This document shows positions 3,763-61,655 of a stretch of 64,000 bases of DNA, piece by piece; positions within the stretch are counted from its first letter, which is position 1, and each line of letters starts with the position of its first letter. The stretch comes from Candidatus Omnitrophota bacterium. Lineage in GTDB: Bacteria; Omnitrophota; Gorgyraeia; 1-14-0-20-64-10. The notes under the pieces were generated by a model. That model was given only the letters and a program-made list of their open reading frames with translations. It was not told the origin of the DNA and did no database searches. Location: the NCBI GenBank assembly GCA_016201735.1, contig JACQCH010000017.1, positions 7,910 to 71,909 on the forward strand, given 5' to 3'. The position numbers and the translations under genes were made by a program.

Positions 3763-4881
3763 TCAGCTCTTGAGGATCACCATCGAGTCCCGGTGGATCA
3801 CCTCTTGAGCTTTGCGGCCCAGCGCCGACCGGATGGCGTCGCTCTTGAACCCTTTGATCTTCTCCAATTCGGCGTGGGAGTAGCCGACGATCCCCCGCGC
3901 GAATTCCTGGTCCTGGTTGATCTGTGCCACGGAAACCAGATCCCCTCGGCGGAAGTTCCCCTCAACCGCGTGGACCCCCGAAGCCAGCAGGGAAAGCCGC
4001 CGAGAAGCCAACGCTTCCCTCGCCCCGGAATCAACCAGGATCCGCCCCTTGGGCCTTCCCGTCAGGCCGAGCCACCGCTGTTTCCCCTTTAATCCGGATC
4101 CCTTTCTCGGAATAAACCATGTTCCAGAGAACTCCTTTTTCAGGAAGGCCTTCGTCAAACAATTCTCCTGCCGGCCGTTCATCAAAATCATTGGGATGCC
4201 GCTGGCCATCACGATCTTGGCTGCCTCTAATTTCGTCCGCATGCCGCCCGTGGAAACTGCTTTGGTCGTCCCCCCGGCCGCCCTTTCCAAATCCGGCGTG
4301 ATCTCTGTGACGAGGGCCTGAAAACCATCGGGACCTTTGAGCTGGTCCACATCGCTTAAAAGAACCAGCAGGTCCGCGTCCACCAGCGCCGCCACCTGAG
4401 CGGAGAGGATGTCGTTGTCTCCGTAGCGAATCTCCTCAACCGACACCGTGTCGTTCTCATTGATGATCGGAACCACCTGCGCCTTCAACAAAGTCAACAG
4501 GGTCGCTTTGGCATTTAGGTACCGCCGGTGATTTTCAAGATCGTCCCGGGTCAGAAGAATCTGCGCCGCGTGGAGGCCCTCTTTCTCGAAATGGGTCGTG
4601 TACCACTGCATGAGCCGGCCCTGCCCCGTCGCCGCGGCGGCCTGGAGCTTGGCCAACTCCTTGGGACGCTTCTTTAAATCCAAGATCCCCATTCCCACCC
4701 CGATGGCGCCGGAGGTCACAACGATCACCTCCATCTTTTGGCGCCAGAGGGCGGCCACCTCGGAAGCGATCGCCTCAACCCGGTGGCGGACCACTCCGGC
4801 ACGGTCAGGATCGGTCAAGACCGACGTACCCACCTTGACCACCAGCCGCTTAGCGGAGGAGAGAAATTCTGTGGGGTTCAT
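3763..4881 (-). CDS. proB: glutamate 5-kinase (with C-terminal PUA domain)
   Basis: 372 aa; LVVKVGTSVLTD..., kinase core and PUA-like C-terminus; ATGA overlap with obgE stop. Confidence 0.9.
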   Translation of the reverse strand: MNPTEFLSSAKRLVVKVGTSVLTDPDRAGVVRHRVEAIASEVAALWRQKMEVIVVTSGAIGVGMGILDLKKRPKELAKLQAAAATGQGRLMQWYTTHFEKEGLHAAQILLTRDDLENHRRYLNAKATLLTLLKAQVVPIINENDTVSVEEIRYGDNDILSAQVAALVDADLLVLLSDVDQLKGPDGFQALVTEITPDLERAAGGTTKAVSTGGMRTKLEAAKIVMASGIPMILMNGRQENCLTKAFLKKEFSGTWFIPRKGSGLKGKQRWLGLTGRPKGRILVDSGAREALASRRLSLLASGVHAVEGNFRRGDLVSVAQINQDQEFARGIVGYSHAELEKIKGFKSDAIRSALGRKAQEVIHRDSMVILKS

Positions 4882-5996
4882 ATTCCAATGTCATCCTCGC
4901 TAAAGCGAGGATCAGATTCCCGCTTTCGCGGGAATGACGGATCTCGAGATTGCTTCGGCTCTTCGAGCCTCGCAATGACCTCCCCTATCTTCTTCAACAG
5001 TTTCGGGACTCCCTCGCCAGTCTTGGCGGAGATCGGAAGTACCGTTCCCTTAATCTTCTTCTTGAACCGGGCCAGGTTTTTGGCGGCGGCCGGCTCGTCC
5101 ATTTTGTTGGCCGCCAGGATTTGCCGCTTGGCGGCGACCGCCGGATCGTACAGCTTCAATTCCCGGTTCAACGTCTCGTAATCCTCCACCGGGTCCCGGC
5201 CGTCCGCCCCAGCCATATCGATCAAGTGGACCAGGAGCGTGGTCCGTTCAATGTGCCTTAAGAACTCCAGCCCAAGCCCCTTTCCCCGGTGGGCCCCCTC
5301 GATCAAGCCGGGGACATCCACGGCGACGACGGAGTTCTTGGAGGGAAGCGTCACCGCCCCCAGCACCGGATGGATCGTCGTGAAAGGAAACGGAGCGATC
5401 TTGGGCCGGGCCTGCGAAATCTGCGCGATCAAGGTGGACTTGCCGGCATTGGGAAGTCCCACGATCCCGACGTCCGCGAGGAGTTTCAGTTCCAGCCGCA
5501 GACGTCTGCGTTCACCGGCCGCCCCGTCCAATTTGCCCGGCTCTAAGAGACGGATATCCCGGGAAGGAGCCCAGGAAGAAGTGGACCGGGACCTTTCCTT
5601 GGAGGCGTTGCCGACCCCGCCGGCCCCGCCCCGGGCGATCAGCATTTCATCACCGGGTTTGAGCAGTTCCTGGATCAGCTCGCCGGTGTCGGCGTCCCAA
5701 AGGAGTGTTCCCAAGGGGACGTTGATCCGGCAGTCGGTCCCTTGAGCGCCGTGCTGTTTCTTGGAAGAGGCGTTGCCGCCGTGCCCGGCCCGGAAATGCC
5801 GTTTGGCTTGGAAATCGAGGAGAGTGGTTAGCTGCGGGTTGGCGCGAACCAGGACATGGCCGCCCCGGCCCCCGTCCCCGCCGTCAGGGATTGCATGCCG
5901 GGTCCAGCGATCCTGGTAAAACGAACGGCACCCCTTGCCGCCCCGGCCGGCTTCCGCGAGGATGGATGCTTGGTCGACGAAACGGGTCGTTCTCAC
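4878..5996 (-). CDS. obgE: GTPase Obg/CgtA
   Basis: 372 aa; Obg fold N-terminus ([21 protein letters not shown], glycine-rich), G domain [10 protein letters not shown]; conserved rplU-rpmA-obg context. Confidence 0.9.
4895..4990. repeat. cluster of three tandem REP-like hairpins (GTCATCCTCGCTAAAGCGAGGATC; ATTCCCGCTTTCGCGGGAATGAC; GATTGC...GCAATGAC) lying inside the 3' end of obgE coding sequence
   Basis: Seen directly; translated in-frame as obg C-terminal tail ...[25 protein letters not shown]; third hairpin resembles unit inside aroA insertion (32216..32250). Confidence 0.6.
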
Positions 5997-7629: not shown

Positions 7630-7876
7630 ATAATGCTTCGGAGAGCTTCGGGGTGTCGGGGGTGGGCTGGATCCCGCCAGCAGGGCCAACCATTGAGGAT
7701 CAAGCCCTGATGGAATGGAAACCCAAGCTGAAATGAACGACTTTCCATGGAGAGTCCTGTCGGGTTTGGCCACCTGCCGATGCTCTGACATGGTGAATGT
7801 GAACAATCCGTCCGAACAGGCCCGATGCCGGGAGCCGGCCCGCCCCCGACAGGACCCCGGGCGGTGGTCCGGAGCA
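7630..7876. mobile_element. MITE-like repeat, truncated copy A (3' two-thirds of the ~0.5 kb element)
   Basis: Core GGAAACCCAAGCTGAAATGAACGACTTTCCATGG...GCTCTGACATGGTGAATGTGAACAA...CCGAACAGGCCCGATGCCGGG shared with 18808..19287 and 25975..26469; fills rng/TPR-protease intergenic gap. Confidence 0.6.
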
Positions 7877-18787: not shown

Positions 18788-18807
18788 CCCTGATTTCCTT
18801 ATTCATC

Positions 18808-19287
18808 CGAACAAGGCCCGATGCCGGGAGCGGACCGCTCCACGCCAGGCCCCGTCTCGTGGATGGGCTTCTCAGACCCGCTCGACGTCCCCAGCGAGGC
18901 CGTCTCGCTAAACGTCGGCCCTCGCTCTCTCCGCCGAACCCAAGCTCACCGGCGGAGAACCATGCCCGCTCGGGCCTCCGATTGTCTTCGAACCCCCTCC
19001 CCGAGCCGGAGCCATCGCATGAGACCTTCGGGGTGGCAGGGGGCAGGCCAGATTCCGCCAGCAGGGCCGACGTTTCAGGCCCATGCCCTGACCGAATGGG
19101 AACCCAAGCTGAAATGAACGACTTTCCATGGAACGTCCTGTTGGATTCGGCCATCTCCCGATGCTCTGACATGGTCAATGTGAACCATTCATCCGAACAA
19201 GGCCCGATGCCGGAACTGGCCTGCCCCCTGACAGGCCCCCGAAAGAAACAGGGGTGGTACCAGTCCAGCATCGCTGTGAACCATTCA
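18808..19287. mobile_element. MITE-like repeat, copy B, flanked by 9-bp direct repeat TTATTCATC (18799..18807 and 19288..19296)
   Basis: ~480 bp non-coding element filling entire pilB-pilC intergenic space; shares core and terminal sequences with copies at 7630..7876 and 25975..26469; ORF-track ORFs inside (18780..19295, 18859..19665) are repeat-derived. Confidence 0.65.
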
Positions 19288-25873: not shown

Positions 25874-25974
25874 AGGCGTACCCATTGGCGAGTATGGCTG
25901 ATTGTTGCTTATCTGTGCAAGACTCTGGCAAATCCACGCAATGTGTACATTGCACAATTGGTACCGCTTCCGGG

Positions 25975-26469
25975 GTCCTGGCGTGGAGCAGTCCGTTCCC
26001 GGCATCGGGCCTGTGTTGGAACTACGAGAGGACCCCGTCTCGGGGGATGGGCTTCTCAGGCCCGCTCGTCGACCCCAGCGACTCAGAGCTTACAAGTGGT
26101 GCGGCCTCCTCTAGCCGCAGCCACGTGGTCGACTTCGCTAATCGAAAATCCCTCGCTCGTCCCCGGAATTTCAGAGCGCGGGGGACACCATGCCCGCTTG
26201 GGATTTTCATTGCCTTCGAACCCCATCCCCCGAGCCGGGGTCCTCGCAGATTCGTCGATCCTCGGGGTGGCGGGGAGCGGTCCGATTCCCGCCAGCAGTG
26301 CCGACGTTTGAGGCCGAGCTCTGTTGAATGGAAACCCATGCTGAAATGTACGACTTTCCATGGAACGTCCTGTTGGGTTTGGCCACCTGCCCATGCTCTG
26401 ACATGGTGAATGTGAACAACCCATCCGAACAAGGCCCGATGCCGGGAACGGACCGCTCCACGCCAGGAC
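25975..26469. mobile_element. MITE-like repeat, full-length copy C with ~45-bp terminal inverted repeats
   Basis: Left end GTCCTGGCGTGGAGCAGTCCGTTCCCGGCATCGGGCCTGTGTTGG vs right end CCGAACAAGGCCCGATGCCGGGAACGGACCGCTCCACGCCAGGAC (about 41/45 complementary); no credible ORF; contains sub-repeat module (26078..26130) that also occurs inside aroA and an alpha/beta hydrolase gene. Confidence 0.7.
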
Positions 26470-26510
26470 CCCGAAGGAACTAGGAGAGGATTAAATTTCT
26501 GGGAGGTGGA

Positions 26511-31728: not shown

Positions 31729-33111
31729 TCAACGGCGAATCGACTCTAAGATCTCGACGAATTCGGGGAAGGAGATATCGATCCACTCCGCCCCCTCGAT
31801 CGTGGTCTGCCCTTTCGCCGCCAACCCGGCCACGGCCAGCGCCATGGCGGTCCGATGATCGTTGAAACTTTTGACCCGGGCCCCTTTCAAGGGAACGGGC
31901 CCTTCAATCCGGATCTCATCTCCCTCGGCCTGAATCTTGGCTCCCATCGCCGTCAGACCCGTCGCCATCGAAACAATCCGATCGGCCTCCTTGACCCGGA
32001 GCTCCCCCGCTCCTTGAATCAGGGTGATCCCTTGGGCTTGAGTCGCGGCCACCATCAGGATCGGAAGCTCATCAATCAGCCCTGGAATCGCCGCCGGGCC
32101 GACCCGAATCCCTTTGAGCGGCGCATGGCTCACCGTCACATCCCCGACCGGCTCCCAGGAGTCCACGTCATGGCTGCGGTTAGAGGAGACCGCACCATTT
32201 CTAAGCTCTAGGTCATTGCGAGCGACCAACGGGAGTGAAGCAATCTCGCTTTTAACATTCGCCCCCATTTGCTTCAACATCTCCAAGAAGCCGGTCCGGG
32301 TCGGATTCAGGCCGACTTGACGGACCGTCACGGAGGATCCGGGAACGATCGCCGCGGCCGCGAGGAAGAAGGCGGCGCTGGAAATATCCCCGGGGATGGT
32401 GAGATCTTTCCCCTTCAGTTCCGGGCCGGGAACCAGGGTGATCTCCGGGCCTTCCCTTTTAATCTGCGCTCCGAAATGCTCAAGCATCCGCTCGGTATGG
32501 TCCCGGGTGGGGATCGGCTCGACGACCGTCGTGGGTTCCTTCGCGTAGAGAGCTGCCAGCAGGAGAGCCGATTTGACCTGTGCCGAGGGAACCGGAAGCG
32601 TGTAGAGGATCCCATGCAGACCTCCGCCCCGGACCGTGAGCGGCAGATGATCCGCCCCATCCGGCCCTTGGATATCCGCCCCCATCTTCCCGAGAGGTTC
32701 GGTAACGCGGCGCATCGGCCGCTGGGAGAGAGAAGCATCCCCGCTTAAAGTCGCAGAGAAAGATTGCCCGGCCAGCAGTCCCAAGAGGAGCCGTGTCGTC
32801 GTCCCGGAATTGCCCATCTCCAGGGGGGAGGAGGGAGTTTTAAAACCGTAGAGCCCGCGGCCCTCGATAACGACCCTCTCGGCTTCCTCTTGGATCCGGA
32901 TCCCGAGAGCCCGGAGGGCCCGCCGCGTCGATTCATTGTCTTCCGATTCCAGGCAATGATCGATCCGTGTTGTCCCTTGGCTGACCGCGCCCAAGAGCAG
33001 GGCCCGGTGAGAAATCGATTTGTCTCCCGGAAGGGACAGTTCCCCTCGGAGAGAATGAGCCGGAGAGATCGTCAGGTGTGCCATGTGGATGAGGGAACCA
33101 ATTCCGTTCAC
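31729..33111 (-). CDS. aroA: 3-phosphoshikimate 1-carboxyvinyltransferase (EPSP synthase) carrying ~90-bp in-frame repeat insertion
   Basis: 460 aa; LPGDKSISHRALLLGA, EPSPS fold motifs; extra segment SLPLVARNDLELRNGAVSSNRSHDVDSW coincides with repeat at 32161..32250. Confidence 0.85.
   Translation of the reverse strand: MNGIGSLIHMAHLTISPAHSLRGELSLPGDKSISHRALLLGAVSQGTTRIDHCLESEDNESTRRALRALGIRIQEEAERVVIEGRGLYGFKTPSSPLEMGNSGTTTRLLLGLLAGQSFSATLSGDASLSQRPMRRVTEPLGKMGADIQGPDGADHLPLTVRGGGLHGILYTLPVPSAQVKSALLLAALYAKEPTTVVEPIPTRDHTERMLEHFGAQIKREGPEITLVPGPELKGKDLTIPGDISSAAFFLAAAAIVPGSSVTVRQVGLNPTRTGFLEMLKQMGANVKSEIASLPLVARNDLELRNGAVSSNRSHDVDSWEPVGDVTVSHAPLKGIRVGPAAIPGLIDELPILMVAATQAQGITLIQGAGELRVKEADRIVSMATGLTAMGAKIQAEGDEIRIEGPVPLKGARVKSFNDHRTAMALAVAGLAAKGQTTIEGAEWIDISFPEFVEILESIRR
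32161..32250. repeat. composite REP-like insertion inside aroA (sub-repeat of MITE family + GGTCATTGCGAG...GAAGCAATC hairpin)
   Basis: ~85% identity over ~54 bp to reverse complement of 26078..26130; second half resembles hairpin in obg tail (4955..4990). Confidence 0.55.
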
Positions 33112-36246: not shown

Positions 36247-36666
36247 TTAGCCGCGATCTTCCGGCGGCAGCCCGGAGGAGGGAGCGACCCCGCGGCGCTT
36301 GGTCTCCTCCTTCGACTGGCAGGCGATGCAGAGACTGGCGTACGGGATCGCCGTCAGGCGCCTCCGGTTGATTGGCTTGCCGCAGGTCAAGCAGTCGCCG
36401 AACCGCTTCTCCTGCACTCGCTTCAACGCCTCATCAATTTCGTACAGGATGGACTGGGCGTTGGTGGCCAGACCGAGGGAGAATTCCCGGTCGTAGCTGT
36501 CGGTGGCGATGTCGGCCATGTGCAGGGTGTAGCCGGACAGATCCCCGGAGGCATCCCGCTGGGACTTGCTCAGGGTATCCTTCTCGATGTGCTTCATCGC
36601 CTGAAGGACCTCCTCTTTCTTCTTGAGGAGCAGTTTTTTGTATCGGTCCAGATCTTTCTTGGTCAC
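36247..36666 (-). CDS. DksA/TraR-family C4 zinc-finger transcription factor (GTG start)
   Basis: 139 aa; coiled-coil N-region, CLTCGKPI...CIACQ zinc finger; GTG start embedded in GGAGGGGCGGGGTGA motif. Confidence 0.7.
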   Translation of the reverse strand: MTKKDLDRYKKLLLKKKEEVLQAMKHIEKDTLSKSQRDASGDLSGYTLHMADIATDSYDREFSLGLATNAQSILYEIDEALKRVQEKRFGDCLTCGKPINRRRLTAIPYASLCIACQSKEETKRRGVAPSSGLPPEDRG

Positions 36667-36826
36667 CCCGCCCCTCCATGGATCGGGACGCCAAAACTGC
36701 GCTCAGGAGCACTGTGGGCGTCCCGAAAAGCTCCATGAGCTTTTATTCTCTGGGGCAACCCGGAAATTACCCTCATGCTCATCCTCCCTCCATGGCCCCA
36801 GAGAAATCCATGGAGGGGCGGGGTCA
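36663..36826 (-). promoter_or_regulatory. structured GC-rich inverted-repeat element between ileS stop and dksA start; outer arms TGACCCCGCCCCTCC / GGAGGGGCGGGGTGA pair and would sequester dksA SD + GTG
   Basis: On minus strand: ileS stop TGA is first 3 nt of 5' arm; inner stems UCUCUGGGGC/GCCCCAGAGA and GGGACGCC/GGCGUCCC; homologous element upstream of ADH at 42458..42691. Confidence 0.5.
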
Positions 36827-41631: not shown

Positions 41632-42320
41632 TGAAAGATCGCCGTCCCGATCCGCACCATCGTCGCTCCTTCCTCCACCGCCACCTCCAAGTCCTGGCTC
41701 ATCCCCATGGACAAATCCAGCGAGGGGTCGATCCCATCCCGAAGCCGGCGCAATTGCCGGAAAACCGGTCGGGCCGATTCCGGATCGTCGGCAAATGGGG
41801 CCATCGTCATGAAGCCCGACAATTTCAGATTCTTCGATTTCAAGATCGCCGCCGCCAGCACCCTTGCTTCGTCCGGCTTACAGCCATGCTTGGCCGCCTC
41901 TCCCGACACATTCACCTGAACCAGCAGCTCCAACCCCCGCTCGGGCTGAGCCGGTCGAAGCCCGACGGCCCGACCCAGCGCCTCGACCAGCTCCAGCGAG
42001 TCGACCGAGTGAACCACGTCGAACAGCTCCACCGCGGCCCTCACCTTGTTCCGCTGAAGGTGCCCGATCAGGTGCCAGCGGACTTCGCGCCCGATCGCCG
42101 GCTGTTTCTGCTGGGCTTCCTGGACCCGGTTCTCGCCGATCTCCCGCACCCCGCAGGCAATCGCCTCCCGGATCCTCTCGACCGGAACTCCTTTGGTCAC
42201 ACCGATGAGACGCACGCCGGCAGGGTCTCGGCCTTTAGACCGGGCCGCTGCCGCAATCCGTTGCCGGATCTGCTCCAGGTTCGCGTCGATCACCCCGCCC
42301 CTCCGGAGTTCCGCTTCCAT
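41628..42320 (-). CDS. yggS: PLP homeostasis protein YggS (alanine racemase N-terminal fold)
   Basis: 230 aa; LIGVTKGVP...IGHLQRNK motifs; ATGA overlap with proC start. Confidence 0.85.
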   Translation of the reverse strand: MEAELRRGGVIDANLEQIRQRIAAAARSKGRDPAGVRLIGVTKGVPVERIREAIACGVREIGENRVQEAQQKQPAIGREVRWHLIGHLQRNKVRAAVELFDVVHSVDSLELVEALGRAVGLRPAQPERGLELLVQVNVSGEAAKHGCKPDEARVLAAAILKSKNLKLSGFMTMAPFADDPESARPVFRQLRRLRDGIDPSLDLSMGMSQDLEVAVEEGATMVRIGTAIFQ

Positions 42321-42457
42321 CCCTGCAGGGATGGAAGCGCTGTGCCGAAGGCACAGATGCCCTCGGCTGTCTCTCGCTTTAAACGATCCCTCTTTTCATG
42401 AACCTGTGCATCTCCTCAGACCCTGAAGAATCCACCCCCCTGCCGAGGGCATACTCC

Positions 42458-42691
42458 GGAGGGGCGGGGTCATGAAATTGCTATTACAGCACCCCGCTTC
42501 CACCTTGTCAACCGACGGAACGGCGTGATAAATTAGACGGCGTGACCCCGCCCCTCCTTTGGGCTCTCTGGCACAGTTGGAGGGTGGTCAACCGGGAGGG
42601 GTCAGCGAGTCACCTGTGCCAGAGAGAGAAATCTTACGAAAGATTTCTGGGACGCCTGAAAGGCGTCCCTACCAAAGGAGGGGCGGGGTGA
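42458..42691 (+). promoter_or_regulatory. three-arm GC-rich inverted-repeat leader (GGAGGGGCGGGGTCA / TGACCCCGCCCCTCC / GGAGGGGCGGGGTGA) with 18-codon uORF (42472..42528), preceding ADH GTG start
   Basis: Arm 1 42458..42472 carries SD+ATG of uORF MKLLLQHPASTLSTDGTA; arm 2 42543..42557 is perfectly complementary to arm 1 and 14/15 to arm 3 (42677..42691) which contains SD and GTG of the ADH; inner stems CTCTCTGGCACAG/CTGTGCCAGAGAG and GGGACGCC/GGCGTCCC. Confidence 0.5.
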
Positions 42692-44784: not shown

Positions 44785-45705
44785 TTGAAGATGCGGATCT
44801 GCTCCCTCCTCCCCACCGCCACCGAGATGCTGTACGCCCTGGGGCTAAGCCGTTCCGTCGTCGCCCGAAGCCAGCACTGCAGTTATCCACCCCAGGTCCG
44901 GGCGAAGCCCGTCGTCGTGACGAGCCGCGTCAAGAAGATCGCCAAGCAGGACAGTTTCGCCATTCACCAGGCGGTCCTCAAACTCCAGCAGGAGGGAGTC
45001 CACCAATTCCAGATCGATCTGCCCGCCTTAAAGCGTCTCAAGCCGGACTTGGTGATCACCCAGAATCTCTGCTCCGTCTGCGCCGCTCCTCATCCGGAGG
45101 TTTCCGCCGTTCTGCAGCATCTCTCCCCTCGCCCCCGGCTGATCTCCATCAACTCCCAGCGGCTCGATGAGATCTTTACCGAGATCCGGAAGCTTGGAGA
45201 AATGACCCATCGGGAAAAAGCAGCAATCCGCTTGACGCACCAGCTTCAACAGCGGATCGACCGGGTCCGGCAATTGGTCTCTCGAACCTCCTACCGGCCC
45301 CGTGCCTGGGTCTGCGAGTGGCTGGAACCGCTGATGGCGGCCGGCCATTGGATCCCGGAGATGGTGGAGGTGGCCGGCGGCGTCGATGGGCTGGGGGTGA
45401 AAGGAAAGGATTCCATCTGGCTGAATTGGGAGCAGGTGCGCCGCTACGATCCGGAGGTGATCGTGGTGATGCCCTGCAGTTACTCAATCTCCCAAACCCT
45501 GCGGGAGAAGAAGCGGCTCACCCAGCGCCCCGGCTGGAAATCTTTATCCGCGGTGAAGCAAGGAAGGGTGTTTGCCCTGGAAGGAAGCTTCTTCCATCAC
45601 GCCGGGCCTCGCCTCGTCGACGGGATCGAGCTCCTGGCCCACCTGTTCCACCCGACCCAAGTCCCCGGAAATTCCCTCTGCCGTCATTACCGCGCATTGA
45701 CCTAA
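44785..45705 (+). CDS. class III periplasmic-binding-protein-fold protein (BtuF/FecB-like ABC substrate-binding domain)
   Basis: 306 aa; PDLVITQNLCSVC and EVIVVMPC motifs typical of cobalamin/siderophore binding proteins; no obvious signal peptide. Confidence 0.55.
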   Translation: MKMRICSLLPTATEMLYALGLSRSVVARSQHCSYPPQVRAKPVVVTSRVKKIAKQDSFAIHQAVLKLQQEGVHQFQIDLPALKRLKPDLVITQNLCSVCAAPHPEVSAVLQHLSPRPRLISINSQRLDEIFTEIRKLGEMTHREKAAIRLTHQLQQRIDRVRQLVSRTSYRPRAWVCEWLEPLMAAGHWIPEMVEVAGGVDGLGVKGKDSIWLNWEQVRRYDPEVIVVMPCSYSISQTLREKKRLTQRPGWKSLSAVKQGRVFALEGSFFHHAGPRLVDGIELLAHLFHPTQVPGNSLCRHYRALT

Positions 45706-46373
45706 TTGGGCTCCAATCCCTTGGCAAGCGTTTCACGCCACTCGTTGAAAAACCCCTGCAGCTCCTGGAAAGGAATCGGTTCCAAGAGCCACAGCATTTC
45801 GGGCATTTCCTCTTTGAAGGTTTTGATCCGCTCCAACGCTACCGCAAGCCAATAAGAATCAAAACCGGGATCCTTTCTTTTGGCATTCTCCATCAGCTCG
45901 TTTGGCTGAAAGCCCCCCTTCTTGACCAAAACATAGAGGTCGATGAAATCTCTCAAGGCCGCTCGGCCAAACAAAGCCAACAGTTTATTGGAAGCGATGT
46001 CCACCAGACTGTCCACTTTCAGGCGCGGATATTCCGGAAACTCCTTGACCGGCTCAAACCGAAAAGGGGCGTCCTGGGCCAGTTGGATCAACGTGGACTC
46101 GCCGGATCGCTCAACGAATAGTTCGACGAACGAATGGAGACCCCTCTGGCGCTCAACGGAAATCCCTTTGGCTCTAAGCACTCCCTCTAGTCGACGACTG
46201 AACGGCTCAACCAGCTCCTCCGTCACCGTGAAAAAGTCCAGATCCTGACTCTTCCGATGGTGAAGGTAAAACTGCGCCAAGGCGGTCCCACCCGTCAGAT
46301 AAAATTGTTCGCTTTCCTGGATGGATGGGAAATTTCGAAGGATAAAATCTTGAATCTTACTGATGACCTGCAA
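45702..46373 (-). CDS. nucleotidyltransferase AbiEii/AbiGii-family toxin (type IV TA / abortive infection, DUF1814)
   Basis: 223 aa; FYLTGGTALAQFYLHHRKSQDLDFF hallmark; lower GC than flanking chromosome. Confidence 0.75.
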   Translation of the reverse strand: MQVISKIQDFILRNFPSIQESEQFYLTGGTALAQFYLHHRKSQDLDFFTVTEELVEPFSRRLEGVLRAKGISVERQRGLHSFVELFVERSGESTLIQLAQDAPFRFEPVKEFPEYPRLKVDSLVDIASNKLLALFGRAALRDFIDLYVLVKKGGFQPNELMENAKRKDPGFDSYWLAVALERIKTFKEEMPEMLWLLEPIPFQELQGFFNEWRETLAKGLEPN

Positions 46374-46623
46374 GGAAATCTTCCCAAAACATCCGCACCT
46401 CCGTTGGAAGGAAGGGGTTCACTCTTCGAATCGACTCGCGCAGCCGATTCCACGGAAGCGTCTTGAGCAAATCCCGGACATCTCCCAGCCGGCCCCGAGT
46501 CAAGACCTGCTGGACGAGAAGATCCGCCTGGGGCGGATCGTCGAGATCGATCCGCGCTCCTTCCCGAAGGAACCAGAAGAGGCGTTTGTGCGGCTGATAA
46601 TCCCGTGGCATCTTAAAGTTCAC
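46357..46623 (-). CDS. putative cognate partner/antitoxin of AbiEii (short, unclassified)
   Basis: 88 aa, overlaps AbiEii start by 17 nt, co-directional; no recognisable wHTH so assignment weak; antisense ORF 46363..46713 is an alternative. Confidence 0.3.
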   Translation of the reverse strand: MNFKMPRDYQPHKRLFWFLREGARIDLDDPPQADLLVQQVLTRGRLGDVRDLLKTLPWNRLRESIRRVNPFLPTEVRMFWEDFLAGHQ

Positions 46624-46669
46624 ACTCCCATGTCGGAGTGTATCACATTCGAGGAAAGACAGGAAGGCG

Positions 46670-49600
46670 TTACGCGAAGATCAGGAGGGCCTCGCCGAAG
46701 TCCCCCCCCTTGAAGAGGCGATGGAGCACCACGATCGAGCCCGGCTCCAACAGCCCCTGCTTCTGTAAATATTGAAGCAGCCCCGCAGTTACTTTAGAAG
46801 CGGTCTGATCATTGACTTGAATCAGCACTTGATCCCGCCGAATTGAAACATTATCGCCCCCAATCACAATCGCCGCTTCCTCCAGAGTCTTCGCCCATCT
46901 AATCAACTTCTTGTCAATCGCATCGTGAAGCCCCGGGGTCACCTGGCCCAACCACCCTTGCTGCACATAGACCGGAACCTCCGTGCCAACGAATGCCTCT
47001 TCAAGCACTGCCGGCGGAACCATCCGGGCGAGGCCCTCCCGATATCCAGCATTTTCTGCCAGCTTCGAAAGGCCGTCGAATTTATCCGCGACATCCACCA
47101 CCCGTTGCGGATCGATCAGATATAGCAGGGTATCGGCAATGACCCGCCGGGCTATGAATTCGTTCAACATATCCCGGGCCTCCTCCGCCGTCGGCGGCGC
47201 CGCCAGCGCCGGCACCGGCGCTTCGGTCTTCTTCACCTCCTCCATCCCGGCGCGCAAGCCAAACTCCCTTGCCACGTCTGGAGCAAACCTTAGTACCTCC
47301 TCTTCAGAGAGCCGAGTAAGACTCCCATTTCTCATAATACGGGCATATTCGGGTAAGAAGCTATTCTGCGGATTGAGATATTTAACGTAGACATCGCCCC
47401 TTACCGTGAATGCGCTCACATTGTCCAGAGAAATGTGCCGCCCCAAATCCAAGAAGTGGACTTCCAAATACCCATCGTCCCCCGGTTTAGGTTTACCAAG
47501 TCGGAATTCCATGCCGGGGCGATTTTCAGGTGCGTCCATGTATGCAGTCTTGAGATGGGATTCCATCGCCGCACGCTTCATGATGCCCAACTCCTGCCTC
47601 ATCTGAGCATCAAGAGATTCCTCGGCAACTTCGGTTATGCCTTTCCTTGTAATACGCAAATAGACGGGAGTATAAGCTCGTTTGGGATCAAGACGTCGCA
47701 CATAAACGTCTCCGCCAAACGACGTAAAACCCGTCACTTTCGTCAACCTGTTTTCCTTCCCAATATCCTTTTGGTGCACATAAAGAAGCTCTGCGGATTC
47801 TACCAAACTAAATGCGATTCCAAGACGGGTGTCCGGATGAACTCTATTTATCTGACGATCCAATTCGTTATAAGACATGCGAGTGCCCAATGGGGCGATG
47901 ACATCCCCACGCAGAAGGCCTACCGTCGGCGTTACTTCTGCCACGTCATCACTATCAACGAGATACTCCCTACTCTCAACCCTAAGTAAAACCTTCCTGC
48001 CGTCGGAACTCAGGCCTCGAACCACATCCCCATTGACAAGAAATCCTTTCGGCACACGCTCTTTGAATCCGATATCTCCCCGGCTGTTTGGATGTATCCA
48101 CTCGATGACATTGACATATCGACCCTTAGGATCTACTACATCAACCATCTTTGTCCCACCATCTCTTAATCTATGTGCCCTCAATCCGTACAAAGGATGC
48201 CCCTTGAGCTCTTGCTTGAGGCCACTGAACAGGTCAAATGCGGAACAGAGCACGTCAGCAGCATCGCGGGCCTGTTCGTCTGTCACGACAGGTTTGAACC
48301 CATCAAACGAAATAGGCACTGGAGTGAGAACCTGAGGAGGAACCCTGGCTGGTTCCGGGGTATGTGGCTGTGGAGTAGGCGTTGTTAACGCATCGTAACC
48401 GATCTTTCCAACTACCCCAGCAGCAGTCCCTAATACTGCCCCCACTGTCCCCACCAGAAGGTCCCGCCTCGTTAAGCCTCTTCCCTTTTTTCCCTCCTCC
48501 AGCCCGGCGGCGGGAGAAGGTGGTTCTTGCTCCCATTTAATCTCCGCTTCCTTAAAATCCATTTTGGCGACAAGCTGCGCTAAAACTGCTTTAAGGACCT
48601 TTTGAATATCTGGGGCAGCTTCCCATCGAGCGAGCCCCCATTCCTCCTTTGAGAAATCGTTGAGGATTGGATTGAATTCCTCGCCCAGCTCGCGACGGTG
48701 GTCAGGTGTAATCTTAAATTGATCCCAATTCATACCGATAAAAAGCCCCAGATCAAATGCGGATATGCCTTTCTCTTGAAATTTCTTTAACAATTTTTTC
48801 TCTGGCTCCTCCAGCCCGGCGGAAGTCTTCTTCTCAAATGGACCCGAAAGGAGTTTGATTTCAAGCTCTAGCTCATCCGGAAACGCGGGGGGAAGTTCAT
48901 TGACTTGAAATTGATAATCGGACAACCCGTCAGCGAGCAGGCGTTCCCTTACGCCATCCAGAACTGTGGGAACATTGGACCACCCCTGAATCGCCACAGG
49001 AACTTTAACCGCATCTCCCCTCTCCAAATCCAAAGCCCTCTTCGGAAAACCGACCAGATTGATGGTTGCCGCTTTACTCACGCTCTTAAGAATTCCTTCA
49101 GCCTTCTGCCATGCCTGTTGTGGAGACAGCCCCCCCTCCAACTCGGCGGCGCCCGGTAGTCGATCGTTGTAGAGAATCATGGCCAGAGCAAGGGCATCTT
49201 GCCTCACGTCAACAATTCCACGGAGATCCAGTTCCAATCCTCTCCGTGTGAAAGCATACGACAGCGTTACTGAATCGCCCTTGATATCCTCCGTGGGTTT
49301 CTTGATGTCTAGATAGAGTAATGCGCCATCCGGACCTACGGATCCGTGGAGAGGTATTGTGTCTGACATCGTTATTAGATCCGCCATCTCTCCTATTCCC
49401 CTAAAAACGGCTTCAATCCTCTTTATGTTGCCCTTGACAACGGGGTCGTCAGCGCGCGTGGGATCTGAAGCTAGTTGAGCTCTAAGGACCTCAAGCCGGG
49501 ACGCAGCCTGAGTGATTGCCAAAGCCGTTCTTTCCAGCCCGTTGAGCTGGCGATTCATGAACTCGTAGGAGCGGTGATTGACTTGCGGGGAAAGTCTCTC

Positions 49601-52600: not shown

Positions 52601-52720
52601 TTCATTGGGACGCAGGGCGAGGGCGGAATTAGGCAAGGCAAGGCATAGACTTAGGAAAAGGGCCAAAATTCTGGGATAAAAAAATAGTTTCTGACTCATG
52701 AAATTTCCTTTGTACCTCAA
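46670..52720 (-). CDS. giant (2016 aa) orphan secreted protein with internal Tat-like/TM segment; no recognisable catalytic domain
   Basis: Sec signal MSQKLFFYPRILALFLSLCLALPNSALA|LRP; long mixed alpha/beta region; coiled coil ~aa 1100-1210; GRGLTRRDLLVGTVGAVLGTAAGVVGKIG then Pro-rich linker (~aa 1520-1570); C-terminal ~450 aa with internal duplications (GDVYVRRLDPKRAYTPVYLRITRKG / GDVYVKYLNPQNSFLPEYARIMRNG); DNA ~50% GC vs ~65% surroundings. Confidence 0.7.
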   Translation of the reverse strand: MRYKGNFMSQKLFFYPRILALFLSLCLALPNSALALRPNEIKQQEAGLEALEKALGAAPNSAPAAGMEGGTFKAPSLKVLRRFVQPTDAELEAAWGRLKREMAVIGAYQVLQFKLTTGTRVTPEEKARVERAYSQIMSQLSWQKVALIIALSNRHHPFAAAKNFSREWADSRIGGSGGIMTQELAAELAGAAVVKTLLGKAESGDVQKALDRLAKSGLGNGDMRKVAEQVIADIQKLRKKRKPVDGAVYRDKTADLYLAALHRVNPGQLAEMKVPGENGQVRFVVSRYKLLELILSGKITDQSSFGVVEGPIRLQPGERILFRFKSGEEVRMPVVLSGPLNLAARQPGKEARFKLAEGKDRKVVLSNSKGKKRSLNSGRDYKIPRLFMVRHEPDGESGKPVLILSTPKAIQSQIEEIGIQAEGTAPERKLFGAAGEEFAAWFRTASKKTVLQYGTVVKQAQVPKGGLRIPVAGVAAAQLTRGLMIEIPGMQMVTLQWNGSGFDLVSTNESGEEERQPFKESGSTLTVKKTKVMKITQDGDAIRLQPIRGDVFLDDNQMESLRRGLQWTSDREALRNHVVDRLVASRSLGGLVQDSAREDLAREVGDLLFKHYIDRQVVDLSTDPVLLKINGLILREIGKERQNLPSRKSSEFLTFLYAVREGLRSWGTRTAAGMEELEQWKALTGPDLRNLRGGDRVRGPDDAVRIVSYSVPMEGGETEVRFLDGTQITTAEVESDVWFVQNNLAGLEETRELADLDLDGLVQKTYRKVEKVESRVTGSSLMFDYKNRVEERKLLGVPGGGILISPNALREPGAITVYVVTDRIDKNPIEPNGLIQGILAWDGKGGFWFADPRKIGEGMIPFDSEGKFGFGRGESSKPGLLGVEAPQHISRKHVAFQSIPEKGLLIREEGRSGARVFLPRREIEELRQVSDLPRPVNPDLREFLQILMAQIHSSNEIITGADEAKKLSPRANALWQDLSGENMTHEDAGRLLQEGRNLLADMERLRTNLAGRLNGRLNELEKTIRSIREESDKTALSKERERLSPQVNHRSYEFMNRQLNGLERTALAITQAASRLEVLRAQLASDPTRADDPVVKGNIKRIEAVFRGIGEMADLITMSDTIPLHGSVGPDGALLYLDIKKPTEDIKGDSVTLSYAFTRRGLELDLRGIVDVRQDALALAMILYNDRLPGAAELEGGLSPQQAWQKAEGILKSVSKAATINLVGFPKRALDLERGDAVKVPVAIQGWSNVPTVLDGVRERLLADGLSDYQFQVNELPPAFPDELELEIKLLSGPFEKKTSAGLEEPEKKLLKKFQEKGISAFDLGLFIGMNWDQFKITPDHRRELGEEFNPILNDFSKEEWGLARWEAAPDIQKVLKAVLAQLVAKMDFKEAEIKWEQEPPSPAAGLEEGKKGRGLTRRDLLVGTVGAVLGTAAGVVGKIGYDALTTPTPQPHTPEPARVPPQVLTPVPISFDGFKPVVTDEQARDAADVLCSAFDLFSGLKQELKGHPLYGLRAHRLRDGGTKMVDVVDPKGRYVNVIEWIHPNSRGDIGFKERVPKGFLVNGDVVRGLSSDGRKVLLRVESREYLVDSDDVAEVTPTVGLLRGDVIAPLGTRMSYNELDRQINRVHPDTRLGIAFSLVESAELLYVHQKDIGKENRLTKVTGFTSFGGDVYVRRLDPKRAYTPVYLRITRKGITEVAEESLDAQMRQELGIMKRAAMESHLKTAYMDAPENRPGMEFRLGKPKPGDDGYLEVHFLDLGRHISLDNVSAFTVRGDVYVKYLNPQNSFLPEYARIMRNGSLTRLSEEEVLRFAPDVAREFGLRAGMEEVKKTEAPVPALAAPPTAEEARDMLNEFIARRVIADTLLYLIDPQRVVDVADKFDGLSKLAENAGYREGLARMVPPAVLEEAFVGTEVPVYVQQGWLGQVTPGLHDAIDKKLIRWAKTLEEAAIVIGGDNVSIRRDQVLIQVNDQTASKVTAGLLQYLQKQGLLEPGSIVVLHRLFKGGDFGEALLIFA

Positions 52721-52931
52721 GTATATCCTCCCGATGGGGCCGTGTCAATATCCTGAGAAAAGTCCTCTGTAACTCCTTTGTTCGCAGGGGGTTGTTTAAA
52801 CAAGATATGCGTTACCGCTAACTAAAAGCCAATTTCACGCCTAGTTCCGTAACTCCGCAGAAACGCTGTAACGTATTGATAGACAGAGGATAGAAATACG
52901 GTGAATGAGGCACCCGTTTTCTTGAGCGTCT

Positions 52932-53009: not shown

Positions 53010-53045
53010 TTTGCGGAGCTAAGGAAGCAGGCGTGAGCCAATTTT

Positions 53046-60380: not shown

Positions 60381-60650
60381 TCTGAGGGGAAAACCATTGC
60401 GTGGTTTTCCCCTCAGGACTCCCCAATCCAGCAAAAGCAATCGGTCTCGTTGGGGGAGATCTCCCATCTCCCCCAACATCCCCCTCTTCCAGAGGAAGGC
60501 CCCGGCTCGGTGGATGAGTTCGAAGACCCTCGGAGGCCCGAGCGGGCATGGTTCTCCGCCTGTGAGCTTAATTATGGCGGAGAGAGCGAGGGCCGGAGTA
60601 GGAGCGAGGCGGACACGCTGGGTCCGCCGAGCGTGTCTGAGAACTCGCCA
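60381..60650. mobile_element. two strong hairpins (60381..60416, 60450..60476) plus inverted partial MITE-like copy E (60478..60650) in divergent GDPD/hydrolase intergenic region
   Basis: 60478..60650 is reverse complement of the left half of copy B (e.g. GGAGGCCCGAGCGGGCATGGTTCTCCGCC); hairpins CTGAGGGGAAAACCA/TGGTTTTCCCCTCAG and TTGGGGGAGAT/ATCTCCCCCAA. Confidence 0.5.
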
Positions 60651-60665
60651 CCGAGCCGGGGCCGG

Positions 60666-61655
60666 ATGGCCATGGCTGGGTTGCTGATCGTAACGCTGAG
60701 TGGATGTGCGTCGGTTCCGATGACGGGTCAAAGTACTGATCATCCTCCTCTGTCCGAAAAATTAATTTCTTATTATGCATATCCGCGGCAATCCTTAGAA
60801 GCGACCGTGGAATCGATTCAGGAGAAGTCCGGGTATCGGATCCGGCACCTGCATCTGGCCGCACCGAACGATTCCGCCTTCCGCCCGATCCGGATTGATT
60901 TCTACCAATCCAATCGGCCGGGGCGGCTGCGGCTAGAGGGAGCCGCACCACTTGTAAGCTCTGAGTCGCGCCTGCCGGTGGTTCTGATGTCCCCGATCCT
61001 GGCGGGGAATGATCTGTACATCCGGGAGTTCGCTCAGTATTACGCGGCGCGGGGCCTGCATTCCGTAATCGTCTACCGGCCGAAGGAGGTTTTCTCCGCG
61101 GACCGGGACTTGAAAGACATTGAAACCCATTTCCAGGAATCGATCATCCAGCTGCGGCGGACGATCGATTGGCTGGAGACACTGGACTCGGTCGACCCCC
61201 GGCGGATCGGATCCTTCGCCATCAGTCTCGGAGCCATCCTCACCATTCCCCTGGCGGCGGTGGAACCCCGAGTGAAAGCTCATGTTTTTGGAATGCCCGC
61301 GGGACACCTCGCCCAGGTGATCATGACCTCCAAGGACAGAACGATCCGAAAACGACGCAGGGCCTATCTGGAAAAGCACGGGTGGAGTCAGGAAGAGGGA
61401 CTGCGCCAGCTAAAAGCGGTGATCGTTTCGGAGCCGATGGAATTCGCCTCAGGGATCGATCCTGAAAGAGTCCTGGTGATCGCGGGACTTTTTGATCGGG
61501 TCCTGGGAGTCCGGCGGTCGCTTGATCTCTGGCAGGCGATGGGCCGGCCGAAACTGATCGTGCTTCCGACCGGGCATTACTCGGCTTACCTGGCCACCCC
61601 GTACCTGAAGATCGTCACCTACTCGTTCTTCCGCCGCCAACTAAAGCTTAAATAG
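60666..61655 (+). CDS. lipoprotein alpha/beta hydrolase (dienelactone-hydrolase-like) with ~40-bp in-frame repeat insertion
   Basis: Start MAMAGLLIVTLSGCAS (lipobox LSGC); AISLG nucleophile-elbow variant; segment LRLEGAAPLVSSESR encoded by repeat at 60935..60975; upstream 118 codons of ORF 60312..61655 are repeat-derived. Confidence 0.55.
   Translation: MAMAGLLIVTLSGCASVPMTGQSTDHPPLSEKLISYYAYPRQSLEATVESIQEKSGYRIRHLHLAAPNDSAFRPIRIDFYQSNRPGRLRLEGAAPLVSSESRLPVVLMSPILAGNDLYIREFAQYYAARGLHSVIVYRPKEVFSADRDLKDIETHFQESIIQLRRTIDWLETLDSVDPRRIGSFAISLGAILTIPLAAVEPRVKAHVFGMPAGHLAQVIMTSKDRTIRKRRRAYLEKHGWSQEEGLRQLKAVIVSEPMEFASGIDPERVLVIAGLFDRVLGVRRSLDLWQAMGRPKLIVLPTGHYSAYLATPYLKIVTYSFFRRQLKLK
60935..60975. 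repeat. sub-repeat module (GAGCCGCACCACTTGTAAGCTCTGAGTCGCG) inserted in frame in hydrolase gene
   Basis: Reverse complement matches 26080..26110 in MITE copy C and 32165..32215 in aroA. Confidence 0.5.

What the first reader, a model, noticed from the sequence alone, without database searches (positions are those of the whole stretch)
25975..26469. MITE-like ~0.5 kb non-coding element with ~45-bp terminal inverted repeats, present in at least four copies in 64 kb
Copy C is bounded by GTCCTGGCGTGGAGCAGTCCGTTCCCGGCATCGGGCCTGTGTTGG and its near reverse complement. Related copies:
- 18808..19287 (full length);
- 7630..7876 (3' part);
- 60478..60650 (5' part, inverted).

All copies lie in intergenic gaps abutting start or stop codons and contain no credible ORF. 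The recurring pseudo-peptides in the ORF track (MESRSFQLGFPF, FTFTMSEHRQVAKP) are artefacts of the repeat.

The elements are modular. Copy C carries an extra ~50-bp module (26078..26130) that is absent from copy B and that is also found alone inside genes. Such an element could mobilise with an IS elsewhere in the genome, or act as an sRNA or processing site.
Basis: seen in the sequence. Interest (0 to 1): 0.55.

Follow-up and report, generated by a model that had tools for sequence, protein, structure and literature searches.

The report
Mosaic of structured intergenic repeat modules
The 0.5-kb "MITE" is a patchwork of several independent, hairpin-closed non-coding repeat modules inserted between housekeeping genes of an uncultured Omnitrophota bacterium; this is a new family of a known kind of bacterial junk or regulatory DNA, and one mini-module has inserted in frame into two protein genes.

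Summary
The repeats are real: they are far above chance and the copies differ by 16-20%, so this is not assembly collapse. The 0.5-kb unit, however, is not one element. It is a mosaic of four parts. R is about 230 nt (7633-7862, 19018-19246, 26248-26478). L is about 170-230 nt (18845-19016, 26022-26245, 60486-60673). There are two extra 45-55-nt copies of R's 5' arm. M is a 45-nt palindromic mini-insert. The 42-bp "TIR" exists only in copy C, where the extra arm is inverted; in copy B the arm is direct.

R and L each close with a long outer stem kept by compensatory changes, while their cores are the conserved part. This is the reverse of a classical MITE. I found no clear target-site duplication, no transposase in the window, and no Rfam, phage or plasmid match.

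Copy B is a true insertion: a syntenic relative has only 4 nt between pilB and pilC. M is an exact 15-codon in-frame insertion in a hydrolase gene and also lies inside aroA. R is extremely rare in public data (about ten copies). The L core recurs in distant Omnitrophota with strong covariation.

Best reading: ERIC/BIME/REPIN-like structured interspersed repeats, co-transcribed with their neighbours. Their function is untested.

The parts
26248..26478 (-). R module, copy C. It begins about 30 nt after the rodA stop. It has a 27-31-bp outer stem and a conserved core that includes the 16-bp palindrome ACGTTCCATGGAAAGT.
26022..26245 (-). L module, copy C. The covariance-model core is 26058-26215. 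It has a 34-bp outer stem (26028-26061 / 26212-26245).
   Evidence: (I7)
26078..26122 (.). M, a 45-nt palindromic mini-insert sitting in the loop of hairpin 2 of L copy C.
   Evidence: (I2)
25971..26017 (+). Extra inverted copy of R-C's 5' arm. Paired with 26432-26473 it makes the 42-nt, 98% complementary 'TIR' of copy C.
   Evidence: (I3)
19018..19246 (-). R module, copy B.
19247..19287 (-). Leader segment between the pilB stop and R-B (TGAATGGTTCACAGCGATGCTGGACTGGTACCACCCCTGTTTCTTT). It is conserved upstream of R in L090 and L093. Its first 13-14 nt continue the R consensus exactly where the solo arm stops.
18845..19016 (-). L module, copy B. The covariance-model core is 18874-18987.
18797..18853 (-). 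Solo copy of the C-type R 5' arm (96% identical to copy C's arm). It is in direct orientation relative to R-B's arm and ends 17 nt before the pilC start.
   Evidence: (D3, I4)
7633..7862 (-). R module, copy A, standing alone. It starts 15 nt after the RNase G stop and ends 14 nt before the start of the TPR-peptidase gene.
60486..60673 (+). L module, copy D, standing alone. The covariance-model core is 60524-60638. It lies in a divergent gap and is co-oriented with the downstream lipoprotein hydrolase gene.
60925..60969 (.). M copy. It is an exact 45-nt (15-codon) in-frame insertion (RLRLEGAAPLVSSES) in the alpha/beta-hydrolase gene 60669-61655.
   Evidence: (I2)
32154..32226 (.). M-like copy inside aroA (31729-33111, minus strand). 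It lies next to a GAGATTGCTTC...CGCAATGAC palindromic element, and together they form the in-frame insert of about 22-27 aa.

Best explanation
The region is a cluster of separate, non-autonomous, hairpin-closed non-coding repeat modules (R, L, solo R arms, M). They belong to lineage-specific families of a small Omnitrophota clade and resemble ERIC, BIME, REPIN and RPE elements more than a TIR/TSD transposon.

Shown:
- The modules occur alone and in different combinations and orientations.
- They sit in spacers that are almost absent in a syntenic relative.
- Other palindromic elements nest inside their hairpin loops.
- Each R and L copy can fold into a long rod closed by a 27-34-bp stem whose pairing is preserved by two-sided substitutions, while the central cores are conserved in sequence.

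Inferred:
- They spread, mostly in the past, at the DNA level by a mechanism that needs or tolerates a folded single strand.
- Arms and cores were reshuffled by recombination. This produced copy C's 'TIR', copy B's direct arm, chimeric arms and an internally deleted derivative.
- They persist because they are transcribed as part of the neighbouring mRNAs in one tolerated orientation.
- There they form very stable stem-loops that most likely act as 3'-UTR or intercistronic stabiliser or processing structures, not as promoters or terminators.
- M is a 45-nt hairpin unit whose length, a multiple of three, lets it survive inside coding sequences.
For: - Modularity: R occurs alone (copy A), L occurs alone (copy D), and R+L occur together in B and C. 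The arm is direct in B and inverted in C.
- Insertion: the pilB-pilC spacer is 4 nt in the syntenic MAG locus L006, against about 500 nt here.
- R outer stem: each copy has 27-31 pairs. Of 32 consensus pairs, 89.6% of cells are paired against at most 57% when the partners are slid. There are 20 doubly changed cells, and 0 of 500 shuffles match this. RNAalifold found 13 compensated pairs among five copies.
- L core: four helices, with 22 of 26 pairs showing changes on both sides. 86.6% of cells are paired, against 57% when shuffled and at most 48% when slid. This holds with an independently found copy.
- Folding z-scores are -2.9 (R-A), -6.1 (L-D) and -12.5 (whole copy C).
- The sense strand folds better than the antisense strand in 7 of 8 R copies and 3 of 3 L copies. 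Tandem 5'-GA/5'-GA mismatches in L helices lie on the sense strand.
- In all six loci where both neighbours point the same way, R is co-oriented with them: A, B, C, L001, L002 and L095.
- Nesting, chimeras and deletions: a P element sits in R's loop in L090 and L093; L090 has a C-type 5' arm and a B-type 3' arm; the two ends of insertion B join to give an uninterrupted R sequence.
- M is in frame in two genes.
- No promoter or terminator consensus was found.
- Literature: compensatory changes on both sides of a hairpin are reported for REPINs (PMC3116915). Clusters of nested MITEs, RNase III or RNase E processing of Correia and ERIC transcripts, and in-frame RPEs are all known (PMC10969869).
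Against: - There are no expression data, so transcription and any RNA-level effect are inferred.
- G-U versus A-C counts in R's outer stem are symmetric (12 versus 13). This fits a DNA-level hairpin as well as an RNA one, and the sense-strand folding advantage could simply reflect G-rich coding-strand composition.
- R's inner helices show little covariation.
- R's invariant centre is a 16-bp DNA palindrome (ACGTTCCATGGAAAGT). That looks more like a site for a dimeric DNA-binding protein than an RNA motif.
- One copy (L092) is antisense to the only visible neighbouring gene.
- No mobilising enzyme has been identified.
- The junctions of insertion B carry a 9-nt direct repeat (GATGAATAA) that could be a real target duplication.
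Confidence: 0.5

Rival explanations
1. Classical MITE: a non-autonomous deletion derivative of an insertion sequence. A transposase encoded elsewhere in the genome binds the about 45-bp terminal inverted repeats and mobilises it, leaving target-site duplications.
For: - Copy C has 42-nt arms that are 98% complementary.
- The element has no ORF, is under 600 bp, is multicopy and lies in intergenic DNA.
- Copy B is an insertion relative to L006 and is flanked by the 9-nt direct repeat GATGAATAA.
- The nearly identical 'C-type' arm occurs four times, once in another metagenome. This suggests a recently active subfamily.
Against: - The TIR is specific to copy C. Copy B has direct ends, and A and D are single modules.
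- The arms vary and co-vary between copies instead of being conserved.
- The 9-nt repeat overlaps R's own GGATGAAT motif, and no repeat flanks A, C or D.
- No transposase was found in 40 window genes.
- No related IS was found in the plasmid or phage collections.
- The co-resident P family shows what a true MITE looks like in this genome.
Confidence: 0.15
2. R and/or L are genes or cis-elements for functional structured RNAs, such as a regulatory sRNA, a protein-sponge RNA, a ribozyme, or a guide or bridge-type RNA for an unlinked enzyme. On this view multicopy status is secondary.
For: - The L core has four covarying helices and invariant single-stranded motifs: CGAGCGGGCAUGG, AGAGCGAG, AGCGAG, the loop (A/U)CGCUGG, and CGAGCGG. 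These are conserved between this genome and distant, lower-GC Omnitrophota (L012, L014, L016).
- R has a 40-nt core that is invariant across at least four metagenomes, while its stems drift.
- Extra hairpins are tolerated at fixed points (L002, L090).
- There is an orientation bias and a sense-strand folding advantage.
Against: - There is no Rfam match, even at E<=10.
- No promoter or terminator signals were found.
- The neighbours have unrelated functions, so the element is not a riboswitch or leader.
- L occurs as adjacent inverted pairs in L012 and L016.
- Solo arms, chimeras and deletion derivatives look like decaying selfish DNA.
- No associated protein gene was seen.
Confidence: 0.2
3. 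DNA-level protein-binding or recombination sites. A nucleoid protein, regulator or recombinase would recognise the palindromic core (ACGTTCCATGGAAAGT in R) or the four GAGCGRG repeats in L, by analogy with the IHF and gyrase sites in BIMEs.
For: - The 16-bp near-perfect palindrome is invariant in 11 of 12 R copies.
- The GAGCGRG motif is repeated in L.
- Wobble counts in R's stem are symmetric between the strands.
- In L012 a TTGACT-17-TATGCT promoter-like site lies downstream of L, which would place L outside that transcript.
Against: - Compensatory maintenance of 30-bp stems is not needed for double-stranded binding sites.
- No candidate protein is known.
- Orientation relative to genes would not matter for a palindromic site.
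Confidence: 0.1
4. The repeats encode small paralogous peptides, for example MESRSFQLGFPF... or M(N/Y)DFPWNVLL....
For: Several frames stay open across R, and gene callers have called ORFs on it in public data.
Against: - The 1-nt indels and a 35-nt insertion shift every frame.
- Start codons are not conserved (L001, L002, L091b).
- Variable sites show no third-position excess (12/13/6).
- There is no Pfam match.
Confidence: 0.02
5. Assembly artefact: collapse or chimeric joining of a single locus.
For: Short-read assemblies break inside the repeat. The Logan contigs end at window position 19232.
Against: - The copies differ by 16-20% and have different unique flanks.
- Two independent assemblies reproduce the pilB-R junction exactly.
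- Related copies occur in four other metagenomes.
Confidence: 0.01

Closest known systems
ERIC / IRU elements of enterobacteria
   Same: Both are large imperfect palindromes with a conserved central core. Both lie in short, transcribed intergenic regions next to gene ends. Both fold into long RNA hairpins. In both, copy number and position differ between relatives, and no transposase is known.
   Different: There is no sequence similarity. R and L are longer (170-300 nt, against 127 nt). They are restricted to an Omnitrophota clade, have modular arms, and their effects on mRNA are untested.
BIMEs (mosaics of REP units) and REPIN/RAYT systems
   Same: Shared features are the mosaic clustering of palindromic units in alternating or direct orientation at gene ends, the presence of singlets as well as doublets, and hairpins kept by compensatory changes (PMC3116915).
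   Different: REPs are 20-40 nt units with a conserved tetranucleotide tag, and the REP itself is the conserved part. Here the units are 5-10 times larger, the stems drift and the cores are conserved. No RAYT gene was seen, and the whole genome is not available.
Classical bacterial MITEs (for example Correia/NEMIS, Nezha, Chunjie)
   Same: Small size, no ORF, multicopy, intergenic location, nested clusters, and possible RNase III substrates.
   Different: There are no family-wide conserved TIRs, no consistent TSD and no parent IS. The co-resident P family (TIR CCCCGCCCCTCC, TSD TCA) meets these criteria, whereas R and L do not.
Rickettsia palindromic elements (RPEs)
   Same: Module M, like RPEs, is a palindromic unit inserted in frame into unrelated housekeeping genes (aroA and a hydrolase), adding a peptide loop without breaking the ORF.
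   Different: M is only 45 nt, against about 100-150 nt for RPEs. It comes from an unrelated phylum, shares no sequence with RPEs, and is also found inside another repeat (L).

Membership tests
MITE | Terminal inverted repeats shared by the copies of the family | tested here: not met
   The 42-nt TIR occurs only in copy C. Copy B has the same 50-mer as a direct repeat, and A and D are single modules. The stems of R and L differ in sequence between copies.
MITE | Target-site duplication of fixed length flanking each copy | tested here: inconclusive
   Copy B is flanked by GATGAATAA, but this overlaps the element's own GGATGAAT motif. No flanking repeat was seen at A, C or D. Empty-site DNA is available only for B.
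MITE | Small, non-coding and multicopy | tested here: met
   The modules are 170-500 nt. There are three R and three L copies in 64 kb. No coding signal was found.
MITE | A parent IS or transposase with matching ends | tested here: inconclusive
   None was found among 40 window genes or in the plasmid and phage collections. The rest of the genome could not be searched.
REP / REPIN-RAYT | 20-40-nt palindromic units, highly conserved in sequence, arranged as inverted doublets that form a hairpin | tested here: not met
   The units are 170-300 nt. The paired arms are the variable part and the core is the conserved part.
REP / REPIN-RAYT | A single-copy RAYT (Y1 transposase) gene flanked by the repeats | not testable with these tools
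   Only 64 kb of the genome is held. No Y1 transposase was found in it.
ERIC-like imperfect palindromes | A long imperfect palindrome with a conserved central core, located in transcribed intergenic regions | tested here: inconclusive
   The palindrome, the conserved core and the position at gene ends are all met. Transcription was not testable, and there is no sequence homology to ERIC (Rfam).
RPE-like in-frame palindromic inserts (module M) | A palindromic repeat inserted in frame in protein genes and absent from orthologues | tested here: met
   A 15-aa insert is absent from 12 of 12 homologues. AroA carries an insert of about 22 aa that is absent from 9 of 10 homologues. The hairpin is TGCGGC-N8-GCCGCA.
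Any Rfam RNA family | Covariance-model score at or above the gathering threshold | tested here: not met
   There were no hits at the gathering threshold in the window or in 7 loci. At E<=10 there was only chance-level noise.

The most novel reading that the evidence does not exclude
R and L could be previously undescribed structured RNAs (or single-stranded DNA structures) that are themselves mobile. L in particular has a four-helix core flanked by four GAGCGRG motifs and conserved across distant Omnitrophota. Such molecules might act as guide, bridge or scaffold RNAs for an unlinked recombinase or RNA-binding protein. That would explain at once the covarying stems, the invariant cores, the orientation rule and the spread to new sites.
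Probability: 0.12. Interest if true: 0.75.

Novelty: new member of a known kind. Interest (0 to 1): 0.42.

Why it matters
Omnitrophota are uncultured, often ultra-small bacteria whose genomes are known only from metagenomes, and their repeat content has not been described.

- Annotation: these modules break short-read assemblies. They also create spurious ORFs that are already present in public protein databases, extend or interrupt real genes (aroA, obg, a hydrolase), and separate genes of tight operons such as pilB-pilC.
- A test case: within one window there is a contrast between structure-conserved repeats (R, L) and a textbook TIR/TSD MITE (P).
- A candidate motif: the covarying L core is a concrete candidate for a new structured nucleic-acid motif, and it can be tested with metatranscriptomes.

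Tried and rejected
- **Rfam:** I searched at the gathering threshold and in E-value mode on the window, on copies C and D, and on seven loci. Nothing credible came back.
- **Exact-pattern scans:**
  - GTDB species genomes gave 0 hits.
  - JGI metagenomes gave 2 hits.
  - IMG/VR gave 5 chance hits with no R homology.
- **R profile on related genomes:** nhmmer with the R profile over 1.2 Mb of related Omnitrophota loci found no copies.
- **Pseudo-peptide searches:** I used six-frame translations of R as protein queries.
  - The 5.8-billion-protein search found 2 proteins.
  - The exhaustive HMMER search of 1.84 billion representatives found 7.
  - R is therefore genuinely rare.
- **Coding hypothesis:** rejected on the basis of indels, non-conserved starts and the codon-phase test.
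- **Promoter and terminator scans:** no hits.
- **Choosing the strand from G-U versus A-C counts in R's outer stem:** not decisive, at 12 versus 13.
- **R's inner secondary structure:** I proposed helices by hand (P1b, Q, S, d, b), but they show too little covariation, and the divergent copy L091a does not keep them.
- **A corrected rule:** my early statement that 'R always follows a stop codon in sense orientation (8/8)' had to be weakened.
  - In L090 and L093, R lies in a divergent gap upstream of tRNA-Leu.
  - The copy in L092 is antisense to its visible neighbour.
  - The sequence I first read as a ybeY stop is part of an extended outer arm of R.
  - What remains is 6 of 6 loci with tandem neighbours.
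- **Source contig:** I could not fetch the rest of it (P0003, a 90.6-kb NCBI MAG contig).

Full report
**Context**

The window is ordinary chromosomal DNA with about 60% GC. Almost all genes lie on the minus strand: proB, obg, rng, a type IV pilus cluster (pilQ/M/pilins/pilC/pilB/pilB/pilT), a GGDEF protein, an HTH gene, rodA, pbp2, mreDCB, aroA, rluD, lgt, lspA, dksA, ileS and others. RodA is 72-77% identical to proteins of uncultured Omnitrophota MAGs. One window protein is 100% identical to an NCBI entry from a 'Candidatus Omnitrophica bacterium' MAG with locus tags HY211_. No tRNA and no Rfam family is present in the window.

Yes, as far as repetition goes.
- The repeat finder and a self-BLAST link 7637-7860, 19021-19241 and 26251-26473 at about 84% identity (E=1e-61).
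- They link 18848-19016 to 60495-60663 (inverted, 80%, E=1e-37) and to 26028-26245.
- A 50-mer occurs at 18804-18853, 19190-19239, 26422-26471 and 7808-7857.
- The inverse of that 50-mer lies at 25971-26012, giving the 42-nt, 98% complementary arms of copy C.
- The copies differ by 16-20% and have unique flanks. Two independent Logan assemblies reproduce the pilB junction exactly and then break inside the repeat at window position 19232. Assembly collapse is therefore excluded.

**Anatomy: one 0.5-kb element or several modules?**

The 0.5-kb unit dissolves into independent modules. I orient them by the strand of the flanking genes and call that strand 'sense'.
- R is about 230 nt and occurs alone at A (7633-7862) and at the upstream end of B and C.
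- L is about 170 nt, or 224 nt in C. It occurs alone at D (60486-60673, on the plus strand, co-oriented with the plus-strand gene that follows it), and downstream of R in B and C.
- B and C each end with an extra copy of R's 5' arm. In B the arm is direct (18797-18853). In C it is inverted (25971-26017). Only the inverted arrangement produces a 'TIR'.
- That arm subtype (GGGGTCCTGGCGTGGAGCGGTCCGTTCCCGGCATCGGGCCT) is nearly identical in four places. One of them is an R copy from a different metagenome (L090), where it is mismatched with a B-type 3' arm, making a chimera.
- L of copy C also carries M, a 45-nt hairpin unit (26078-26122), in the loop of one of its hairpins.

**More copies from public data**

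- An exact-pattern scan of one genome per GTDB species found nothing. The JGI metagenome scan found two copies, L001 and L002.
- Gene callers often call ORFs on GC-rich repeats, so I used translations of R as protein queries. The 5.8-billion-protein search returned two proteins. An exhaustive HMMER pass over 1.84 billion representatives returned seven.
- Their contigs (L090-L095) raise the total to 12 R copies, drawn from at least five samples. R is thus confined to a very small clade.
- None of 80 RodA-centred loci from other Omnitrophota and neighbouring phyla (1.2 Mb) contains R.

**Are they insertions?**

In the syntenic contig L006 the order rodA-HTH-GGDEF-...-pilB-pilB-pilC is conserved. 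There the pilB stop and the pilC start are 4 nt apart. In the window about 500 nt of R+L+arm lie between them, so copy B is an insertion.

Its junctions carry the 9-nt direct repeat GATGAATAA. This overlaps R's own motif GGATGAAT. When the two ends of the insert are joined, they give an uninterrupted R sequence, CTTGTTCGGATGAATGGTTCACA. That pattern fits either a 7-9-nt target duplication or integration or recombination through microhomology. I cannot decide between the two. No flanking repeat is visible at A, C or D.

**Structure**

- Every R copy folds into a rod closed by 27-31 base pairs.
- On a seven-copy alignment, 32 consensus outer-stem pairs are 89.6% paired, against at most 57% when the 3' partners are slid. 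There are 20 doubly substituted cells, and none of 500 shuffles reaches this.
- For R the arms drift while the core stays fixed. About 40 nt, AACAGGACGTTCCATGGAAAGTCGT.CATTTC, are invariant in 11 of 12 copies. This stretch contains the 16-bp near-palindrome ACGTTCCATGGAAAGT.
- Extra hairpins or whole nested elements are tolerated at two fixed points (L002; L090 and L093).
- One copy (L091a) keeps the arms and the sub-terminal motifs but has a very different core. Another (L095) keeps the core but has unrelated arms. Arms and cores are therefore exchangeable.
- The inner helices I proposed for R have too little covariation to be trusted.

L gave a clearer picture.
- Weak nhmmer hits led to L-like elements just downstream of aroA in three distant, lower-GC Omnitrophota genomes: L012 (two inverted copies), L014 and L016.
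- A hand-derived four-helix core has changes on both sides in 22 of 26 pairs. It is 86.6% paired, against 57% in shuffles and at most 48% when slid.
- A covariance model built from it found one further copy that was not in the seed (L016 5386-5493, E=2e-7), and the statistics hold when that copy is included.
- Between the helices lie invariant motifs: CGAGCGGGCAUGG, AGAGCGAG, AGCGAG, the loop (A/U)CGCUGG, and CGAGCGG. Several helices contain tandem 5'-GA/5'-GA mismatches on the sense strand.
- A caveat: I drew the structure from these same sequences, so some circularity remains.

**Which strand, and RNA or DNA?**

- The sense strand folds more stably than the antisense strand in 7 of 8 R copies and 3 of 3 L copies.
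- In the six loci where both neighbours point the same way, R is co-oriented with them: A, B, C, L001, L002 and L095.
- Against this, wobble pairs in R's outer stem are symmetric between the strands (12 versus 13). L092 is antisense to its visible neighbour. L090 and L093 sit in a divergent gap upstream of tRNA-Leu.
- I therefore regard sense-strand RNA structure as favoured but not shown.

**Other tests**

- No sigma-70-like promoter or intrinsic terminator is detectable in B, C or D.
- Coding is rejected. Frames are shifted by 1-nt indels and by a 35-nt insertion, start codons are not conserved, and variable sites split 12/13/6 by codon phase.

**Module M inside genes**

- The copy at 60925-60969 is an exact 45-nt, 15-codon insertion (RLRLEGAAPLVSSES) between ...RPG and RLPVV... 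of an alpha/beta-hydrolase lipoprotein. It is absent from all 12 aligned homologues of 55-71% identity.
- The copy at 32154-32226 lies in aroA next to another palindromic element (GAGATTGCTTC...CGCAATGAC). Together they add about 22-27 residues that nine of ten homologues lack.
- The tenth homologue (L010) carries a different palindrome at the same site. This behaviour resembles that of Rickettsia palindromic elements (PMC10969869).

**Comparison with known kinds**

A MITE needs family-wide TIRs, a TSD and, ideally, a parent IS. Here the TIR is peculiar to one copy, the arms co-vary instead of being conserved, the TSD is ambiguous, and no transposase or related IS was found.

The same window contains a family that does meet the criteria. 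The P elements at 36663-36826, 42290-42472 and 42543-42691 have identical CCCCGCCCCTCC termini and a flanking TCA (or TGA) duplication. One P element sits inside R in L090 and L093, where it duplicates the TCA of R's CATTTCA.

R and L are closer to ERIC/IRU elements, BIME mosaics and REPINs. For REPINs, compensatory changes across the hairpin have been reported and attributed to a single-stranded intermediate (PMC3116915).

I file R, L and M as new, lineage-specific families of this known kind of bacterial interspersed structured repeat. The L core is a candidate new structured motif that deserves a proper covariation test.

**Verdict**

- My confidence in the 'mosaic of structured, co-transcribed, formerly mobile repeat modules' reading is about 0.5.
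- The rivals are: functional RNA 0.2, classical MITE 0.15, DNA-binding site 0.1, coding 0.02 and assembly artefact 0.01.

Noticed in passing
window 36663-36826, 42290-42472, 42543-42691; L090 333-510; L093 505-685; L001 ~920-1130: A third repeat family, 'P'. It has identical termini, (T)CACCCCGCCCCTCC...GGAGGGGCGGGGTG(A), modular inner hairpins, and a 3-nt direct repeat (TCA, or TGA when inverted) at both ends. This is a textbook MITE with a TNA-type target duplication. One copy is nested in the hairpin loop of R in another organism.
   Followed up: partly
window 4946-4979 (inside obg, 4878-5996 minus strand), 57329-57362, 32226-32261 (inside aroA); L010 ~5170-5245: A fourth palindromic family, GAGATTGCTTCG-hairpin-CTCGCAATGAC. 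The C-terminal tail of Obg (...[22 protein letters not shown]...) appears to be built from such repeats. The aroA gene of L010 carries a larger relative at the same codon position as the insert in the window.
   Followed up: partly
L012 5394-5530 (-) and 5599-5714 (+); L016 5386-5493 (-) and 5591-5694 (+); L014 680-781 (+): L-like elements sit just downstream of aroA in three distant Omnitrophota genomes, twice as adjacent inverted pairs. In L012 a TTGACT-17-TATGCT promoter-like site follows the second copy.
   Followed up: partly
L001 ~612-640 and ~885-915; L091 ~725-760; L092 ~17-50; L094 ~1120-1150 and ~1400-1430: In related organisms R has an additional outer layer of inverted repeat, TAATACAAACG(6 nt)..TGTGACAC. 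In L001 this outer arm supplies the last codons and the stop codon of ybeY.
   Followed up: partly
window 26353-26368, 19121-19136, 7740-7755 (plus strand): The invariant centre of R is a 16-bp near-perfect DNA palindrome, ACTTTCCATGGAACGT, centred on CCATGG. It could be a site for a dimeric DNA-binding protein.
   Followed up: no
window 45702-54272: A low-GC island (0.51-0.54, against about 0.60 elsewhere). It holds a 2016-aa ORF (46670-52720, minus strand), an AbiEii-type toxin gene (45702-46373) and an AAA_14/DUF4143 ATPase (53046-54272). It may be horizontally acquired.
   Followed up: no
L001 47-110, 1517-1615; L002 398-460: Another hairpin repeat, CCCACCACCTG...CAGGTGGTGGG, flanks genes in the Ga0105164 organism. 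I did not look for it in the window.
   Followed up: no
L095 60-110 and 376-425: In one copy the R core is flanked by direct repeats of an unrelated module of about 50 nt (CCGCCA...GGCGGATCCGC...GGCGGAGGCTGC) instead of the usual arms. This is further evidence that cores and arms recombine.
   Followed up: no
window 26089-26151 (-): A sub-threshold Rfam hit of module M and its flank to the nuoG RNA motif (20.6 bits, against a gathering score of 33; E=0.06). It is probably a chance resemblance between hairpins.
   Followed up: no
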